Shown here piece by piece: positions 7,589 to 12,182 of a DNA stretch of 64,000 nucleotides (position 1 is its first letter; each line of letters opens with the position of its first letter). The notes beneath the pieces were generated by a model that was not told where the DNA came from, ran no database searches, and worked only from the letters and a program-made list of their open reading frames with translations. The position numbers and the translations under genes are program-made. Origin of the DNA: a virus (lineage: Duplodnaviria > Caudoviricetes); the IMG/VR virus record IMGVR_UViG_3300020411_000002; one strand, written 5' to 3'.

Positions 7589-9559
7589 TTAGCGTGGCAG
7601 ATTTTTCAGCAGGCCAGCCGCGCGATTTTTGAAATCACCTGAAGCTACGCTAGACTGTGAAGTCATTGCACTAGATTCAGATTGTGGTTTACTCGCTACA
7701 GTGCGTGGCTGCAAGCGATTTTCGAAAGTGCTTGAAGTAGAAGCAGTGCCGTCTTTACGTGCGTAAGAAGCAGAAGCTACCATACGAGAAATTTCGTTTT
7801 GGGTTTCCGCAGGCTTCTTAACAAGTTCAACAGCTTGTTCTACCAGCATACTATTAAGGGTATCAGCGTTAGCTTCAAACACGTTGTCAACTAATTGACG
7901 AGCGTTTTCAACACCAGATGCCTTAAGAGTGTTTGCTAAGCTATCAATGATTGGGTTTGATTTACCATTGAATACACCACGGTTAATACCCATCATAGCT
8001 GTAGCCAGAGCAGCAGTGAAACGATCAACTACAGTAGCGTCACGTTCTTCCTGTGCAGAAGCATAAGCTTCAACTTTAGCTTGGGCGTCTGCGGCAACTG
8101 AGCGTTCAACTACGGTTTGCATAGTATGTTCGTCAAATGCGATAGACTCAAAGCCAAATTCACGTAGACCTTCCGATACACCGTTAGAAGCGATAGACTT
8201 CATAACAGCAGAAGCGAAGCTTTGTGAGCGGAAGATTTCTTTAACCGTGCCTTCAACGTTAGACTCTGATGCAACAGCAATAGGCGTAGCGCTATGCATT
8301 GCAATCCAGCGGTTTTCGCCAGCAACAGTTGCAGCATTAACTAGAGCAATCTTGTCTGCTTCCAGACCGTTTTCGCTTGCGTATGCTACCGCTTCCATAA
8401 CGTCTAAAGAAACCGTTACTTCGGCAACAGATGAATCAGATTCAACATCTTCTTCTTCTTCATCTTCAAGACCGTCTACGTCATCCGAATCTTCTTCATC
8501 TTCGTCATCTTCGTAAATGTCTTCTTCGTCGTCGCCTTCGTCTTCTTCATCGTCTTCAAGGTCGTCGTCTTCAAGGTCGTCGTCTTCAACGTCATCGTCG
8601 TCAGAGCTTGATACGATAGTAAGGTCGTCTAGGTCGTCGTCTTCATCGTCAAAGAGGTCGTCGTCTTCTAGATCGGCTTCGATTTCGTCTAACTCAGAAT
8701 CTTCATCATCGAAGATATCATCGTCTTCCATCATTCCGGCGTCCATTTCAAGTACAGACTGTTCCAGTTCTTGAATATCTTCTGGGTCAACAACCGCAGA
8801 CGAGCAAGACGGACAAACTGTAATGTCTTCACTTGAAGCAATAATGTGCATACCGCATTCTTCCGAATCAACACACTGGAAGTAGTGAGCTTCGTTGCCG
8901 TATTTGCTAGACAATGATTTAAGTACTGAGCTATCAGATTCAATGTCTTGTGCAGTTACGTCTTCGCCGTAGAACGGGCTGAACTTCACGTTATCGCTAC
9001 TGTTAGAAATAAATGATACATTAGTACCATCAACGTAAGATAAAGCAGGTTCGTGACCTTGAGCAATCGCGATAAAGTCTTGCTGCGCTTCTTCCATAGA
9101 AGAGGCTACAACGACAATACCTTGGCTGCCGCTAAGCTCACTGTAGTCGCTTGATTCAGATTCGAACTCTTCTTCAACGTCTGCTTCAAAATCAACATGA
9201 GCGTTACAAGAAGGGCAGTTAGAAACTGATTCGCAAGAGTCCGCAATGATATGAGTAGAGCATTCACTACACATAGCGTATTCTACAACTACCTTATCGT
9301 CGGGGTCAGCACTGGAAGTTACTTCGAGATCAGTATCCACTACATTCATGGTTTCACCACCGTCGCGAAGTGGATTCAAGAAAGTATTTCCTGAGCCTGC
9401 GACAGTAGCTAGTGCGAAAGAGTTATCACTAGAAGCGAGTACTTCTAAGCTTTCTCCAAGCGCAACCTTGGCGTAGTTACGGATAGCTTCATCCCGAGAA
9501 CTAGCAGTAACAACAATACCAGCGAAAGAAGGTTGCTGGGTTTTCTGTTTTACTGTCAT
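7589..9559 (-). CDS. Prohead scaffold/core-like protein with two Cys-rich zinc-ribbon repeats and a D/E tract
   Basis: C..C...HII....CPSC occurs twice; ~110-aa D/E tract; helical C-terminus; first gene of the capsid operon. Confidence 0.65.
   Translation of the reverse strand: MTVKQKTQQPSFAGIVVTASSRDEAIRNYAKVALGESLEVLASSDNSFALATVAGSGNTFLNPLRDGGETMNVVDTDLEVTSSADPDDKVVVEYAMCSECSTHIIADSCESVSNCPSCNAHVDFEADVEEEFESESSDYSELSGSQGIVVVASSMEEAQQDFIAIAQGHEPALSYVDGTNVSFISNSSDNVKFSPFYGEDVTAQDIESDSSVLKSLSSKYGNEAHYFQCVDSEECGMHIIASSEDITVCPSCSSAVVDPEDIQELEQSVLEMDAGMMEDDDIFDDEDSELDEIEADLEDDDLFDDEDDDLDDLTIVSSSDDDDVEDDDLEDDDLEDDEEDEGDDEEDIYEDDEDEEDSDDVDGLEDEEEEDVESDSSVAEVTVSLDVMEAVAYASENGLEADKIALVNAATVAGENRWIAMHSATPIAVASESNVEGTVKEIFRSQSFASAVMKSIASNGVSEGLREFGFESIAFDEHTMQTVVERSVAADAQAKVEAYASAQEERDATVVDRFTAALATAMMGINRGVFNGKSNPIIDSLANTLKASGVENARQLVDNVFEANADTLNSMLVEQAVELVKKPAETQNEISRMVASASYARKDGTASTSSTFENRLQPRTVASKPQSESSAMTSQSSVASGDFKNRAAGLLKNLPR
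8551..8589 (+). repeat. 15-nt coding tandem repeat (CGTCTTCAAGGTCGT x ~2.6)
   Basis: Read directly; encodes EDDDL repeats in the acidic tract on the minus strand. Confidence 0.8.
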
Positions 9560-9754: not shown

Positions 9755-9783
9755 AAAAAAGCCCCGAATTAACGAGGCTTTTT
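9755..9783 (-). terminator. Intrinsic terminator (possibly bidirectional)
   Basis: AAAAAGCCTCG-TTAATT-CGGGGCTTTTTT on the minus strand, just after the stop at 9801. Confidence 0.8.
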
Positions 9784-9800
9784 CCGTACTAAGAACAAAA

Positions 9801-10433
9801 TTAATCGTGAAAGAAAATAGCAGCTTTAGAACCATTTCTATCGAATACGTTTATATGGATACGTCCCGCATTTGGTAAAACGCCTTCATACGTAGTACCC
9901 GCTACACCGTCCATACGTTTAGACTTTAGATTCGATCCTATCTTAGTTAAGAGTTTTGAAACTGCATTTTTAGTTACGTTAGTACTATAACCTTTATTGC
10001 CTTGAACATCATGTCTTTTTAAAGGAGATCCTTTAATCTTATGTTCTTTCAAAAAACTATTAGCTCTTTTGTCAGAGGACTCAGATGAAGAGCTACCTCC
10101 GCTACTGTTTTCTTCAATATCAGAAAGTGCATCTTGTACCGTAGATTTATCTTTGAATATAAGATTCATGAACTTTTTAAGAGAATCTTTATCTCCATAC
10201 GTGTTCATTCTTTCTTCGTTGAAATCTGGATCGCGACCTGCGAACTCTAACTTAACACCTGCTTGATTTGCCATATCTAACAAATCTTCGGCAGTAGTTC
10301 CGTAGTCATCTTCCATGTGTGTAAGTTTGCCGTTTTTGACCGTAGCGTCTATCAAAGTTTCGTACTTATGAGAAGCATTCTTTATGTCTGCTTTTGTCGC
10401 ATAAGCTCCGCTCGATTTTTTCGGCTTACTTAC
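9801..10433 (-). CDS. Hypothetical ORF; probable -1 frameshift extension of the upstream 385-aa protein
   Basis: The ORF track starts it at TTG 10355 with no SD. The frame stays open upstream past 10433 and overlaps the A_AAA_AAG site. Confidence 0.6.
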   Translation of the reverse strand, partial: VSKPKKSSGAYATKADIKNASHKYETLIDATVKNGKLTHMEDDYGTTAEDLLDMANQAGVKLEFAGRDPDFNEERMNTYGDKDSLKKFMNLIFKDKSTVQDALSDIEENSSGGSSSSESSDKRANSFLKEHKIKGSPLKRHDVQGNKGYSTNVTKNAVSKLLTKIGSNLKSKRMDGVAGTTYEGVLPNAGRIHINVFDRNGSKAAIFFHD

Positions 10434-11587
10434 TTTTTTGCAGCAGTTTCCTTCTTAGCTGGTGCAGCTTTAGTCGCTGGTGCAGGTACGTCTTCAGGCT
10501 TCTTGTACTTAAAGCCTAAGTCTTTGATTTTATCCATTAGAGCTTTTTGCTCTTTCAAGATTTTATCTTTAGCCGCAGGAGTCTTAGCATTCGCCAAACG
10601 CGCTGTACGAGTAGCTAACTGTTTGAATAACGGATTAGCTTTCTTCATTACTTCTGGATCTTTCAGAAGCTTTGCATTACCGCCGCGTGGTGCTTTAGCT
10701 GGGGCTTTAGCAGGAGTCTTCGCTGTAGGCTTCTTACCACCTTTCTCACGAGCAGTAGCGTCTTTGATTGCGTTTTCCATTTTCTCAACGTATTCAGGAC
10801 GCAACTTACGATTCATCGCTTTAGCTTTCATCTTGAAGAACTTGAATTCTTCTTTTAGATCTTCACTGCCACGTTTATGTGCGTTAGCGCCTGGGCGACG
10901 GAAGTTACTTGGAGTCTTTGGTACACCCGGAGAGTTAGGACCTAACTTCTTACCAGCAGGTGCTTTAGCTGGGGTCTTACCAGTTTGCTTTGGATCTTTG
11001 TTTGCATTCTTATCGCCGCCAGTGATTACACTAAAGATACGACGAGCAGACATACGCGGACCGAGATACTGACGAGTAAGACGACCACCATTTGCAGGCT
11101 GCTTAAATACATGCCAACCTGGGGCAATCATGTTTGGTGCGCGTTTCTTACGACCCATTTGAACACCAGCACCTTGACCGCCAGTACCTTTCTTAGGTTG
11201 TGCAGAAAGCATTTCAAGAGTACCCATATCGATAACGGTATCTTCCATTGCTTCTGCTTCGATAGAAAGATCCATTTCGTCTTCATGATAATCTTCTGTA
11301 CCGTAGAACGGAGTTGAAGAAATAGATTCCATATCACGCAATGCAAAAATCTTTTGCTTCATTGAAGGCATGTACTTAACTTCTTTTGCAACGCGAAGTA
11401 GTACAATAGTTTCTTTCTTGGTTTTAAGAACGTAACGCCCAGGCTGCTTGTGTACAATACGCGGAGCAGGACGAATTTGCTTTAAAGCATCTTGTAAAGT
11501 CTTTGGAACTTCAACAGCCTTTTTGGCAGGTTTTTTACCACCAGCACGAGGTGCGCTTAGAGATTCAAACGTAATATTAATAGACAT
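10430..11587 (-). CDS. Lys/Ala/Pro-rich (histone H1-like) basic protein with S-x-S-A leader
   Basis: Starts MSINITFESLSAP; contains KTPAKAPA repeats and ends PAPATKAAPAKKETAAKK. Confidence 0.75.
   Translation of the reverse strand: MSINITFESLSAPRAGGKKPAKKAVEVPKTLQDALKQIRPAPRIVHKQPGRYVLKTKKETIVLLRVAKEVKYMPSMKQKIFALRDMESISSTPFYGTEDYHEDEMDLSIEAEAMEDTVIDMGTLEMLSAQPKKGTGGQGAGVQMGRKKRAPNMIAPGWHVFKQPANGGRLTRQYLGPRMSARRIFSVITGGDKNANKDPKQTGKTPAKAPAGKKLGPNSPGVPKTPSNFRRPGANAHKRGSEDLKEEFKFFKMKAKAMNRKLRPEYVEKMENAIKDATAREKGGKKPTAKTPAKAPAKAPRGGNAKLLKDPEVMKKANPLFKQLATRTARLANAKTPAAKDKILKEQKALMDKIKDLGFKYKKPEDVPAPATKAAPAKKETAAKK
10433..10439 (-). promoter_or_regulatory. Candidate programmed -1 ribosomal frameshift heptamer A_AAA_AAG
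   Basis: Reads GCA AAA AAG TAA at the gene end, with AAGGA 9 nt upstream and an open -1 frame downstream. Confidence 0.65.
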
Positions 11588-11613: not shown

Positions 11614-11654
11614 TAAAATTAGAACTATCTGTTTTCTAAACTAGGTTAAAATTA
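11614..11654 (-). promoter_or_regulatory. Two TAATTTTA motifs upstream of the 385-aa gene
   Basis: TAAAATTA on the plus strand at 11614-11621 and 11647-11654. Confidence 0.3.
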
Positions 11655-12182
11655 ACCAAATCGCGTTCCAACAAATTTACCATTCCTATAAAGAGGTTTA
11701 GAAGCTTTTGGATCAAGCATACCAAGCTGAAATTCTTTGGTAGCATATTCACCACCACCAGGAGCGTGGTAATCTAAAAGGAATTTAAGAACGTTATCCT
11801 TTGAGCCGTGTACAGAAATCACCGAATCGCCACCAGGACCATAACCTGAATCCCAATTCTCAAAGCGGAAACTTACTTTGAATTTGTTAAATATGTCTAA
11901 CTGCTCTTCAAGTTCAATCAATGCGCTATCGTAAGCTTCTTGGTCATCAGCAGAATCAGGCAAAGTTATAGGTCTAGCTACTTTAAACTGTGAGCCCGTA
12001 AGATTTTCTATTGCAGATAACACATCGCCTATTGGCTGCACAACTAAGATAGTAGAATGGGCTTCACCTCCAGCAGTACCTGTATTACCAATTAGCTTTT
12101 GTGCTTGTGCAAGTTTACGTGCAACTCTCTTATAAGTGGAAGATCTTGCGCTAATGCTAGACAAGTTGATTGTTATATTCAT
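11652..12182 (-). CDS. Hypothetical protein with S-x-S-A leader
   Basis: Starts MNITINLSSISARSS. Confidence 0.7.
   Translation of the reverse strand: MNITINLSSISARSSTYKRVARKLAQAQKLIGNTGTAGGEAHSTILVVQPIGDVLSAIENLTGSQFKVARPITLPDSADDQEAYDSALIELEEQLDIFNKFKVSFRFENWDSGYGPGGDSVISVHGSKDNVLKFLLDYHAPGGGEYATKEFQLGMLDPKASKPLYRNGKFVGTRFG

What the first reader, a model, noticed from the sequence alone, without database searches (positions are those of the whole stretch)
10433..10453. Candidate programmed -1 frameshift fusing a histone-H1-like protein to the next ORF
Seen: the 385-aa gene ends GCT AAG AAG GAA ACT GCT GCA AAA AAG TAA. That places an in-frame A_AAA_AAG immediately before the stop, with SD-like AAGGA 9 nt upstream and a weak possible stem (GTAAGC/GCTTAT) just downstream. 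The -1 frame is open from the slip site to 9801 and reads VSKPKKSSGAYATKADIKNASHKYETLIDATVKNGK..., continuing the K/A-rich composition. The downstream ORF has no ATG or TTG with a usable SD. Established: A_AAA_AAG with a 5' SD about 10 nt away is the E. coli dnaX and IS-family -1 frameshift signal. Inference: two products, 385 aa and ~595 aa, in a fixed ratio. Phage frameshifts are best known in tail chaperones and capsid or tail subunits, so one in a putative DNA-binding head-cargo protein would be notable.
Basis: partly seen in the sequence, partly recalled or inferred. Interest (0 to 1): 0.82.

Follow-up and report, generated by a model that had tools for sequence, protein, structure and literature searches.

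The report
Conserved -1 frameshift in phage head-cargo gene
A marine jumbo phage most likely makes a short (385 aa) and a long (595 aa) form of a lysine-rich, probably capsid-packaged protein by letting ribosomes slip back one base at A_AAA_AAG, and relatives keep the same 20-base slip signal at different domain borders of the gene.

Summary
On the minus strand a 385-aa ORF ends GCA AAA AAG TAA, with AAGGA 9 nt upstream. The -1 frame runs 210 codons to 9801.

- **Conservation:** Twelve relatives' loci (independent assemblies) carry the identical 20-mer AAAAAAGTAAGTAAGCCGAA. It follows seven different upstream sequences and precedes three different downstream modules, always with the -1 offset.
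- **Distant relatives:** Phage NCTB and others encode both halves in one ORF.
- **Start-less stretch is coding:** All 6 substitutions in codons 7-23 are synonymous in the -1 frame. The predicted fold begins at about residue 18, before the TTG (27) and ATG (40), which both lack an SD.
- **Rarity:** This is the only in-frame A_AAA_AAG in 58 ORFs of the window.
- **SD stimulator:** An SD-like tract lies 9-14 nt upstream in almost every context, against about 8% of control positions.
- **Second phage:** An unrelated phage contig uses the same ~38-nt cassette to join a virion protein to an Ig-like domain.

Caveats: one metatranscriptome contig reads A7 (in frame), the downstream hairpin is not significant, and "histone H1-like" is composition only.

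Verdict: a new member of the dnaX/IS-type -1 frameshift class, in a modular putative head-cargo protein. An overlapping window of this scan noted the same site.

The parts
10430..11587 (-). ORF-A, 385 aa plus TAA. It has an N-terminal I-x-F-E-S-L-S-A leader, conserved domains (PGRYVLK..., MGRKKRAPNM...GPRMSARRI) and a Lys/Ala/Pro-rich helical tail ending ETAAKK.
   Evidence: alignments; AF2 model (pLDDT 56, partly disordered); no Pfam or PHROG hit.
10449..10453 (-). SD-like AAGGA, 9 nt 5' of the heptamer; candidate 5' stimulator.
   Evidence: Duplex with the anti-SD is -5.7 kcal/mol. Six of 7 distinct upstream contexts in relatives reach -5.7 or better at 9-14 nt, against 8% of control positions at -5 or better.
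10433..10439 (-). Slippery heptamer A_AAA_AAG in the ORF-A frame.
   Evidence: It is the only in-frame copy in 58 ORFs of the window and is identical in all 12 relatives' loci that carry the cassette.
10420..10439 (-). Conserved 20-nt cassette AAAAAAGTAAGTAAGCCGAA. It contains the heptamer, the 0-frame TAA (10432..10430), the +1-frame TAA (10428..10426) and the first -1 codons (V-S-K-P-K).
   Evidence: Exact in WIN, L002-L008, L018-L021 and L026, and in the unrelated phage contig L022.
9801..10433 (-). ORF-B, -1 frame, 210 codons from GTA (10433) plus TAA (9803..9801). The predicted long product is 385 + 210 = 595 aa.
   Evidence: dN/dS is 0.12-0.22 against relatives. AF2 pLDDT is 81.
10317..10433 (-). 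39 codons of ORF-B with no ATG or GTG (one SD-less TTG at codon 27). They are translated only if ribosomes arrive from ORF-A.
   Evidence: 6 of 6 substitutions in codons 7-23 are synonymous in this frame and non-synonymous in the others. The stretch is homologous to in-frame segments of L002, L020 and L026.
10092..10382 (-). Variable alpha/beta 'module' domain (ORF-B residues ~18-114).
   Evidence: AF2 model; VIA-align coverage 18-114 with only weak KH/ferredoxin-like matches, Z 5.5 or less; paralogous modules in relatives.
9804..10076 (-). Conserved C-terminal domain (ORF-B residues 120-210, ...GRIHINVFD...IFFHD). It lies at or near the C-terminus of single-ORF relatives.
   Evidence: 65.6% identical to the C-terminus of NCTB BN7874_223; P0001, P0008, P0043; AF2 model.
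9755..9784 (-). Intrinsic-terminator-like hairpin plus U-run after ORF-B. No terminator-like site was found on this strand between ORF-A and ORF-B.
   Evidence: Fold of -19.1 kcal/mol, z -4.8. The same sequence lies downstream of the homologous gene in distant relatives L012 and L014. The consensus scan missed this hairpin itself, so its silence between the ORFs is weak evidence.
11652..12182 (-). Stand-alone 176-aa paralogue of a module that is fused inside ORF-A in relatives. It carries its own MNITINLSSISA leader.
   Evidence: BLASTP 30% identity, E 1e-10 to residues 394-515 of P0003; the gene is absent from L002, L003 and L006 and present in L005.

Best explanation
ORF-A and ORF-B are one gene decoded in two ways.

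Most ribosomes read ORF-A to the TAA and release a 385-aa protein. A fraction slips. With tRNA-Lys on AAA (P site) and AAG (A site) of A_AAA_AAG, the ribosome moves back one base. Two features help: an SD-like AAGGA pairs with 16S rRNA 9 nt upstream, and the stop codon arrives next in the A site. The slipped ribosomes continue GTA AGT AAG CCG... and make a 595-aa protein. This adds a small alpha/beta module and the conserved ...IFFHD domain.

ORF-A carries the N-terminal leader shared by neighbouring putative head-cargo genes, and ORF-B has none. Fusion would therefore be the way the extra domains are loaded into the capsid, in a fixed minority ratio.

Shown here: the sequence anatomy, its conservation, selection on the start-less segment, and single-ORF relatives. 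Inferred: that ribosomes rather than RNA polymerase slip, the efficiency, the packaging role, and any DNA-binding function.
For: - **Canonical signal:** The heptamer is in the correct frame with an immediate stop, and a second TAA closes the +1 frame.
- **Conserved junction:** The same 20-mer junction with the -1 offset occurs in 12 relatives' loci. It follows seven different ORF-A ends (ORF-A 385-546 aa in the loci; 645 aa in P0034) and precedes three different downstream modules.
- **Selection on ORF-B:** L020 and L026 have diverged to dS 0.65 in ORF-B with dN/dS 0.12. Their first 41 nt from the heptamer are identical.
- **Start-less stretch is coding:** All 6 substitutions in codons 7-23 are synonymous in the -1 frame. 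The same segment is read inside unbroken ORFs in L002, L020 and L026. The AF2 fold starts at about residue 18, upstream of TTG 27 and ATG 40. In L018 the first ATG is 77 codons in.
- **Weak internal starts:** Their SD energies are -1.0 and -1.7 kcal/mol.
- **SD-like tract:** It lies 9-14 nt upstream in 6 of 7 contexts, against 8% of control windows. This is the spacing the review PMC5009743 gives for -1 stimulation.
- **Heptamer rarity:** It is otherwise absent in frame from 20,141 codons of the window.
- **Single-ORF relatives:** NCTB P0001, P0008 and P0043 join the halves in one ORF.
- **Second phage:** L022 uses 35 of 38 identical bases of the cassette in a textbook context, a virion protein followed by a Big_2 domain in -1.
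- **Distant relative:** L016 also has GGAGG, 14-15 nt, A_AAA_AAG and an open -1 ORF.
Against: - There is no protein, ribosome-profiling or reporter evidence.
- No significant or conserved 3' RNA structure was found, so efficiency may be low.
- One metatranscriptome contig (X16, depth ~9, also one SNP) reads A7, the in-frame form. A7 alleles or RNA-level slippage therefore exist.
- The cassette is one base short of a common in-frame coding word (KKVSK: 73 of 131 IMG/VR sites). It could have begun as a plain deletion.
- Close relatives are 98% or more identical around the site, so part of the 'conservation' is shallow.
- The host and its tRNA-Lys set are unknown.
Confidence: 0.7

Rival explanations
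1. Transcriptional slippage. RNA polymerase adds one A in the A6 run, so a share of the mRNAs read A7 and encode the 595-aa fusion directly. The protein products are the same as with ribosomal frameshifting.
For: The only A7 sequence seen is an RNA contig (X16). No fused KKVSKPKK protein turned up in the DNA-derived protein collection. Jumbo phages may use polymerases of unknown fidelity.
Against: The run is only 6 A; from my own knowledge, known programmed slippage sites in bacteria mostly use 9 or more. The second RNA contig (X17) reads A6. The X16 contig also carries a SNP, so it is another genotype, and contigs keep only the majority path. The enrichment of SD-like tracts at 9-14 nt and the exact codon phase of the heptamer have no role in transcription.
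Confidence: 0.08
2. Tolerated or switchable frameshift allele. A one-base deletion in an A7 run of an in-frame KKVSKPKK linker split the gene. A6 genomes make only the 385-aa form (ORF-B silent or nearly so). A7 or recombinant in-frame alleles make the fusion, as in phase variation.
For: In-frame KKVSK words are common. An A7 RNA contig exists. An in-frame variant exists (P0040/L046).
Against: A6 is the form in every DNA assembly seen, across 10 studies and many contigs. It has persisted while modules were exchanged on both sides and while ORF-B accumulated dS 0.65 under dN/dS 0.12. A silent ORF-B would not stay under selection, including its start-less codons. A6 is short for a contingency tract. 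L046 is exactly L002 minus the stretch between two 56-nt repeats and may be an assembly skip.
Confidence: 0.12
3. Two separate genes. ORF-B starts on its own at TTG 10355 or ATG 10316 (gene callers say 171 or 184 aa), and the overlap with the heptamer is incidental.
For: Public gene calls give 171 aa (P0015, 161 contigs) or 184 aa (P0018). In L020 and L026 a GTG/ATG lies 11-12 codons in.
Against: Both starts lack an SD. Codons 7-23 upstream of them are under synonymous-only change and belong to the predicted fold. In L018 the first ATG is 77 codons in. Distant relatives have one ORF.
Confidence: 0.07
4. Assembly or homopolymer error in the window.
For: The site is a homopolymer.
Against: The same A6 is found in 12 relatives' loci from independent assemblies and in DNA contigs of another study.
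Confidence: 0.01

Closest known systems
E. coli dnaX tau/gamma -1 frameshift
   Same: Identical heptamer A_AAA_AAG and an SD-like 5' stimulator about 10 nt upstream, giving two products from one gene (PMC5009743). In relatives, the in-frame linkers of this gene also carry the heptamer plus SD with a -1 stop 1-9 codons later. That is the dnaX outcome, a truncated product.
   Different: At the window's site the shift extends the protein rather than truncating it. No 3' stem-loop was found. A stop codon follows the heptamer directly. The gene class is unrelated.
IS3-family (e.g. IS911) orfA-orfAB frameshift
   Same: A_AAA_AAG near the end of the upstream ORF, and a fusion product made by a -1 shift. 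An SD stimulator is reported for an estimated 56% of IS elements (PMC5009743).
   Different: Not a transposase. No 3' structure. The cassette sits at domain borders of a modular virion-type protein.
Phage structural proteins extended by frameshifting (T3/T7 gene 10A/10B; Ig-like domain extensions in A2, A118, PSA; lambda G/GT)
   Same: A minority C-terminally extended form of a phage protein. The review notes that mobile domains can land in or out of frame and then be expressed by frameshifting (PMC5009743). That matches the module shuffling seen here. L022 is a direct example with the same cassette and a Big_2 domain.
   Different: The window's extension is not Ig-like. The gene is not a capsid, tail-tube or tail-chaperone gene. 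It lies among TopoIB-like and DarA_C genes.
Phage NCTB BN7874_223 and metagenomic homologues (P0008, P0043)
   Same: Homologous N-terminal domains and the same ...GRIHIN.FD...IFFHD C-terminal domain, in the same gene neighbourhood.
   Different: They are single ORFs of 534-596 aa with no A_AAA_AAG heptamer anywhere in the gene.
Capsid-targeted internal proteins (T4 IPI-III, P1 Dar proteins)
   Same: From my own knowledge, these use N-terminal targeting leaders and are injected cargo. Here there is a shared N-terminal I-x-L-S-x-S-A motif, and a DarA_C-domain neighbour matches a PHROG family described as released from the phage upon host infection.
   Different: Packaging and cleavage are untested here. 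As far as I know, no frameshift is known in those systems.

Membership tests
Programmed -1 ribosomal frameshift, dnaX/IS3 type | X_XXY_YYZ heptamer in the upstream (0) frame | tested here: met
   A_AAA_AAG at 10439..10433 in the ORF-A frame.
Programmed -1 ribosomal frameshift, dnaX/IS3 type | Long -1 ORF that overlaps the site and lacks its own usable start | tested here: met
   210 codons; first TTG at codon 27 and first ATG at codon 40, with SD energies of -1.0 and -1.7 kcal/mol.
Programmed -1 ribosomal frameshift, dnaX/IS3 type | Heptamer and frame offset conserved in relatives | tested here: met
   Twelve relatives' loci with seven upstream and three downstream contexts. L016, at 38% protein identity, also has the heptamer and a -1 ORF. 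More distant single-ORF relatives lack it.
Programmed -1 ribosomal frameshift, dnaX/IS3 type | Purifying selection on the -1 frame between the site and the first start codon | tested here: met
   6 of 6 changes are synonymous. dN/dS is 0.24-0.34 for codons 6-40 against internal copies, and 0.12 for ORF-B of L020 against L026.
Programmed -1 ribosomal frameshift, dnaX/IS3 type | 5' SD-like stimulator 9-14 nt upstream | tested here: met
   AAGGA plus 9 nt. Six of 7 contexts reach -5.7 kcal/mol or better, against 8% of background windows at -5 or better. Spacing rule from PMC5009743.
Programmed -1 ribosomal frameshift, dnaX/IS3 type | 3' stimulatory stem-loop or pseudoknot 5-9 nt downstream | tested here: not met
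   z -0.8. The stem starts inside the heptamer, and the downstream sequence differs in L020, L026 and L022. This element is usual but not universal.
Programmed -1 ribosomal frameshift, dnaX/IS3 type | Two protein products and a measurable shift efficiency | not testable with these tools
   Uncultured phage; no proteomic data were reachable.
Programmed transcriptional slippage | Long homopolymer (usually 9 or more) and heterogeneous run length in RNA but not in DNA | tested here: inconclusive
   The run is A6. RNA contig X16 reads A7 and RNA contig X17 reads A6. Only contigs were available, not reads.
Tail assembly chaperone G/GT frameshift | Gene pair between the major tail protein and the tape measure protein | tested here: not met
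   The neighbours are a TopoIB-like gene, a DarA_C gene, an acidic 656-aa protein and a virion structural protein.
Ig-like domain extension by frameshift | The extension is a Big_2/FN3/I-set domain on a capsid or tail protein | tested here: not met
   ORF-B has no Pfam hit and folds into alpha/beta domains. The feature is met only in the unrelated contig L022.
Linker histone H1 | Winged-helix globular domain (Pfam Linker_histone) | tested here: not met
   No Pfam hit for ORF-A. The AF2 model shows small beta units and helices, with only a Lys/Ala/Pro-rich composition.

The most novel reading that the evidence does not exclude
The 38-nt unit (SD-like AAGGA, 9-nt spacer, A_AAA_AAG, TAAGTAAG, CCGAAG) may be a portable recoding linker that recombination moves between domain borders and even between unrelated phages (L022).

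Together with the in-frame linkers it would turn one modular head-cargo gene into a ladder of nested products. Those linkers keep the heptamer and SD but hit a -1 stop at once. The products would be a truncated form, a full form and an extended form. Their ratios would be set by translation, and their composition would differ from strain to strain.
Probability: 0.3. Interest if true: 0.78.

Novelty: new member of a known kind. Interest (0 to 1): 0.6.

Why it matters
Programmed frameshifts in tailed phages are documented mainly for tail chaperones and for capsid or tail decoration. This would be a case in a putative packaged (ejected) cargo protein of uncultured marine jumbo phages of the Lu11/PaBG/NCTB group.

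It also corrects public gene calls. The 171- or 184-aa 'gene' seen on more than 160 contigs is most likely the 3' part of a 595-aa product.

The family offers a natural experiment. The same signal is placed after different modules in different strains, and single-ORF relatives exist. That makes it a convenient system to ask why a fixed short:long ratio is selected, and how recoding signals spread by recombination.

Tried and rejected
- **Family and phage searches:** PHROG and Pfam gave nothing for either ORF. A DNA search of the phage collection found only NCTB.
- **IMG/VR:** A scan with ORF-B peptides found no relative; this phage clade is almost absent from that collection.
- **Downstream RNA structure:** Not significant.
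- **Fold searches of the ORF-B model:** Foldseek against PDB gave no match at E 0.001 or better. VIA-align gave Z 5.5 or less, with generic KH/ferredoxin-like alpha/beta folds. The Atlas feature search gave only low-score leads to toxin-type nuclease families (0.83 or below), which I do not rely on.
- **ORF-A model:** Low confidence.
- **Own genome and tRNA-Lys:** No whole genome is held, and the 242-kb relative's record is not searchable. The phage's tRNA-Lys content could not be checked; there are no tRNAs in the window.
- **Cassette words as markers:** The 20-, 17- and 15-mer words are not diagnostic on their own. Most hits are ordinary in-frame KKVSK coding or chance.
- **Terminator scan:** The consensus scan missed the hairpin after ORF-B; folding showed it.
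- **P0040:** It looked like a natural in-frame fusion, but it is L002 minus the stretch between two 56-nt repeats. It may be an assembly skip.
- **Method note:** The fused query carried one X at the break. Residues are numbered 1-385 for ORF-A and 1-210 for ORF-B, counted from the GTA.
Full report
**What is in the window**

On the minus strand a 385-aa ORF (ORF-A, 10430..11587) ends ...GCT AAG AAG GAA ACT GCT GCA AAA AAG TAA.
- The heptamer A_AAA_AAG (10439..10433) is in frame.
- AAGGA lies 9 nt upstream (10453..10449).
- TAA follows at once, and a second TAA four bases later closes the +1 frame.
- The -1 frame opens 7 codons before the site and runs 210 codons (ORF-B, GTA at 10433 to TAA at 9803..9801), reading VSKPKKSSGAY....
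- The first start codons in ORF-B are a TTG at codon 27 and an ATG at codon 40.
- Their anti-SD pairing energies are -1.0 and -1.7 kcal/mol. That is at or beyond the weak tail (90th percentile -1.7) of 59 ORFs of the window, whose median is -4.3. ORF-A's own start scores -5.4.
- A strong terminator-like hairpin (-19.1 kcal/mol, z -4.8) follows ORF-B at 9755..9784.
- The consensus scan listed no terminator-like site on this strand between the two ORFs, though it also missed the hairpin after ORF-B.

The suggested downstream stem exists, but it starts inside the heptamer and the region folds no better than shuffles (z -0.8).

**Is it more than chance?**

The 58 minus-strand ORFs of 100 aa or more hold 20,141 codons, 1,373 Lys codons and 95 Lys-Lys pairs. 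This is the only in-frame A_AAA_AAG among them. Of the 14 Lys-Lys pairs preceded by a codon ending in A, 13 avoid the AAA-AAR form.

**What the phage is**

The only hit in the phage collection is Phage NCTB (LT598654, 258 kb). PMC7412058 places NCTB with Pseudomonas phages PaBG and Lu11 and with Dickeya and Erwinia jumbo phages.

Sequences almost identical to the window occur in marine, seawater and hydrothermal-vent metagenomes of 10 studies. They lie on contigs of up to about 244 kb.

The neighbouring genes are:
- a TopoIB-like protein;
- a DarA_C-domain protein, which also matches a PHROG family described as 'released from the phage upon host infection';
- a 656-aa acidic protein;
- a virion structural protein.

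ORF-A and these neighbours share an N-terminal I-x-L-S-x-S-A-type leader. It is visible and was noted earlier in this scan (e1-5319665, e1-5319655). This fits capsid-packaged cargo but is untested.

'Histone H1-like' is composition only. There is no Pfam hit, and the AF2 model shows small beta units and helices at low confidence.

**Distant relatives have one ORF**

NCTB BN7874_223 (591 aa) and the metagenomic P0008 (596 aa) carry the N-terminal domains of ORF-A and the C-terminal ...GRIHIN.FD...IFFHD domain of ORF-B in one reading frame. P0043 (534 aa) has the same domain internally. None of these genes contains an in-frame A_AAA_AAG. The 595-aa fusion therefore corresponds to the ancestral architecture.

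**Close relatives keep the junction, not the surroundings**

Twelve loci from independent assemblies (ENA, Logan, NCBI MAGs, JGI) contain the exact 20-mer AAAAAAGTAAGTAAGCCGAA, always with ORF-B in the -1 frame.
- Upstream, ORF-A ends in seven different sequences: ...ETAAKK, ...GGSSSKK, ...DEPVKK, ...DEPAKK, ...ATTAKK, ...SKPAKK and ...KKPAAKK.
- ORF-A lengths are 385, 424, 430, 484, 513, 545 and 546 aa in the loci. The database proteins P0030 and P0034 add 386 and 645 aa.
- The lengths differ because zero, one or two variable modules lie between the conserved part and the junction.
- Downstream, three different modules follow, giving -1 ORFs of 210, 221, 347 or 427 codons.

A paralogous in-frame linker (AAAAAAG CCT AGT GCG CCG, KKPSAPKK) is one base longer than the frameshift linker (AAAAAAG TAAGTAAG CCG).

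L020 and L026 have diverged to dS 0.65 in ORF-B under dN/dS 0.12. Even so, their first 41 nt from the heptamer are identical. The junction has thus survived module exchange on both sides and substantial divergence while the downstream frame stayed under selection.

The window's 385-aa product is recorded on 49 contigs, and the 171-aa gene call of ORF-B on 161. An assembly error is excluded as far as contigs can show.

**The start-less stretch is coding**

- Across the relatives, the six variable sites in ORF-B codons 7-23 are all synonymous third positions in the -1 frame. All are non-synonymous in the other two frames.
- The same peptide segment is read inside unbroken ORFs in L002, L020 and L026.
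- The AF2 model of ORF-B (pLDDT 81) has two alpha/beta domains. The first spans about residues 18-114, so initiation at TTG 27 or ATG 40 would cut off up to three strands.
- In L018 the first ATG is 77 codons in.

Independent initiation therefore does not explain the data.

**Stimulators**

An SD-like tract pairs with the anti-SD at -5.7 to -10.8 kcal/mol, 9-14 nt upstream of the heptamer, in 6 of 7 distinct contexts. The seventh scores -3.2. Only 8% of control in-frame windows in the same genes reach -5. Some contexts are homologous linkers, so a conservative count is 4 of 5.

The review PMC5009743 gives 9-14 nt as the stimulatory spacing for -1 shifts. It names A_AAA_AAG as the most shift-prone heptamer in E. 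coli, where a single tRNA-Lys reads both codons. From my own knowledge, a stop codon next to a slippery run also favours shifting. No conserved 3' structure exists.

**Wider pattern**

In relatives, the in-frame linkers also carry A_AAA_AAG with the same SD. A -1 shift there meets a stop after 1-9 codons. One gene may therefore yield truncated, standard and extended forms.

A distant relative (L016, P0011) again has GGAGG, 14-15 nt, A_AAA_AAG, two codons and a stop, with the next ORF open in -1 through the site.

An unrelated 120-kb phage contig (L022) shares 35 of 38 bases of the cassette. There a 244-aa virion structural protein ends ...DAAEKK on the heptamer plus TAA, and the -1 frame continues VSKPKS... 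into a Big_2 Ig-like domain. That is the classical phage frameshift context.

The bare 15-20-mers are otherwise mostly ordinary in-frame KKVSK coding or chance matches. The frameshift linker thus looks like an in-frame KKVSKPK linker that lost one A and was then kept.

**Caveats**

- Laying contigs of four runs showed A6 in DNA contigs of another study and in one RNA contig (X17).
- A second RNA contig (X16, 997 nt, depth ~9, one extra SNP) has one more base in the run, which is the in-frame A7 form.
- That contig may be a rare allele or RNA-level slippage. Only contigs were available, so this stays open.
- P0040 (594 aa), an apparent in-frame fusion, equals L002 minus the stretch between two 56-nt repeats. 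It may be a real deletion or an assembly skip.
- The function of the ORF-B domains is unknown. Fold matches reach only Z 5.5, and the Atlas leads are weak.

**Verdict**

The best explanation is a programmed -1 ribosomal frameshift that gives 385-aa and 595-aa products (confidence about 0.7).

The rivals are:
- a tolerated or switchable frameshift allele (0.12);
- transcriptional slippage (0.08);
- separate initiation of ORF-B (0.07);
- assembly error (0.01).

It is a new member of the dnaX/IS-type class in a new gene class. Its position between modules varies from strain to strain, which is unusual.

Noticed in passing
L022:1-1057 (IMGVR_UViG_2917461297_000001): An unrelated 120-kb phage contig carries 35 of 38 identical bases of the cassette. 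A 244-aa virion structural protein (phrog_2729) ends on A_AAA_AAG TAA, and the -1 frame continues into a Big_2 Ig-like domain. This suggests the recoding linker is shared or transferred between phages.
   Followed up: partly
window 10434-10439; RNA run X16: One metatranscriptome contig (997 nt, depth ~9, plus a SNP at 10473) has an extra base in the A-run (A7), which puts ORF-A and ORF-B in frame. A second RNA run and the DNA contigs read A6.
   Followed up: partly
L002:4146, L003:4149, L005:3743, L020:4070: The in-frame linkers between modules in relatives also hold an in-frame A_AAA_AAG with an SD-like tract upstream. A -1 shift there hits a stop after 1-9 codons, so a dnaX-like truncated product is possible.
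   Followed up: partly
window 11652-12182 (-): The 176-aa ORF with its own MNITINLSSISA leader is a stand-alone paralogue (30% identity, E 1e-10) of a module that is fused inside ORF-A in P0003 and P0005. The gene is missing in those genomes. Modules therefore switch between stand-alone and fused forms.
   Followed up: partly
window 11587, 12182, 12667, 14388 (N-termini, minus strand): Four consecutive genes start with a hydrophobic strand followed by S-x-S-A/R (MSINITFESLSA, MNITINLSSISA, MEIFISLSA, MLISLSR). A second ...EMLSAQP motif inside ORF-A aligns with ...SESAAP in distant relatives. These are possible capsid-targeting or protease sites, as earlier notes of this scan suggested.
   Followed up: no
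L046:2501-4285: P0040 (594 aa) is an in-frame fusion that equals L002 with the segment between two identical 56-nt repeats removed. It is either a natural recombinant without the frameshift linker or an assembly skip.
   Followed up: yes
L016:4645-6780: In the distant relative's contig, a 711-aa PAS/GGDEF/EAL protein lies directly after the homologous gene pair. That is an unexpected neighbour for a phage virion module.
   Followed up: no
window 7589-9559 (-): The 656-aa protein has paired CxxC motifs, repeated units and a ~100-residue Asp/Glu tract. Its PHROG family (phrog_20988) is labelled ATPase, but no ATPase motif was apparent.
   Followed up: no
window 9755-9784 (-): A terminator hairpin (GCCUCG-UUAAUU-CGGGGC plus a U-run) is conserved almost base for base downstream of the homologous gene in distant relatives L012 and L014.
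   Followed up: partly
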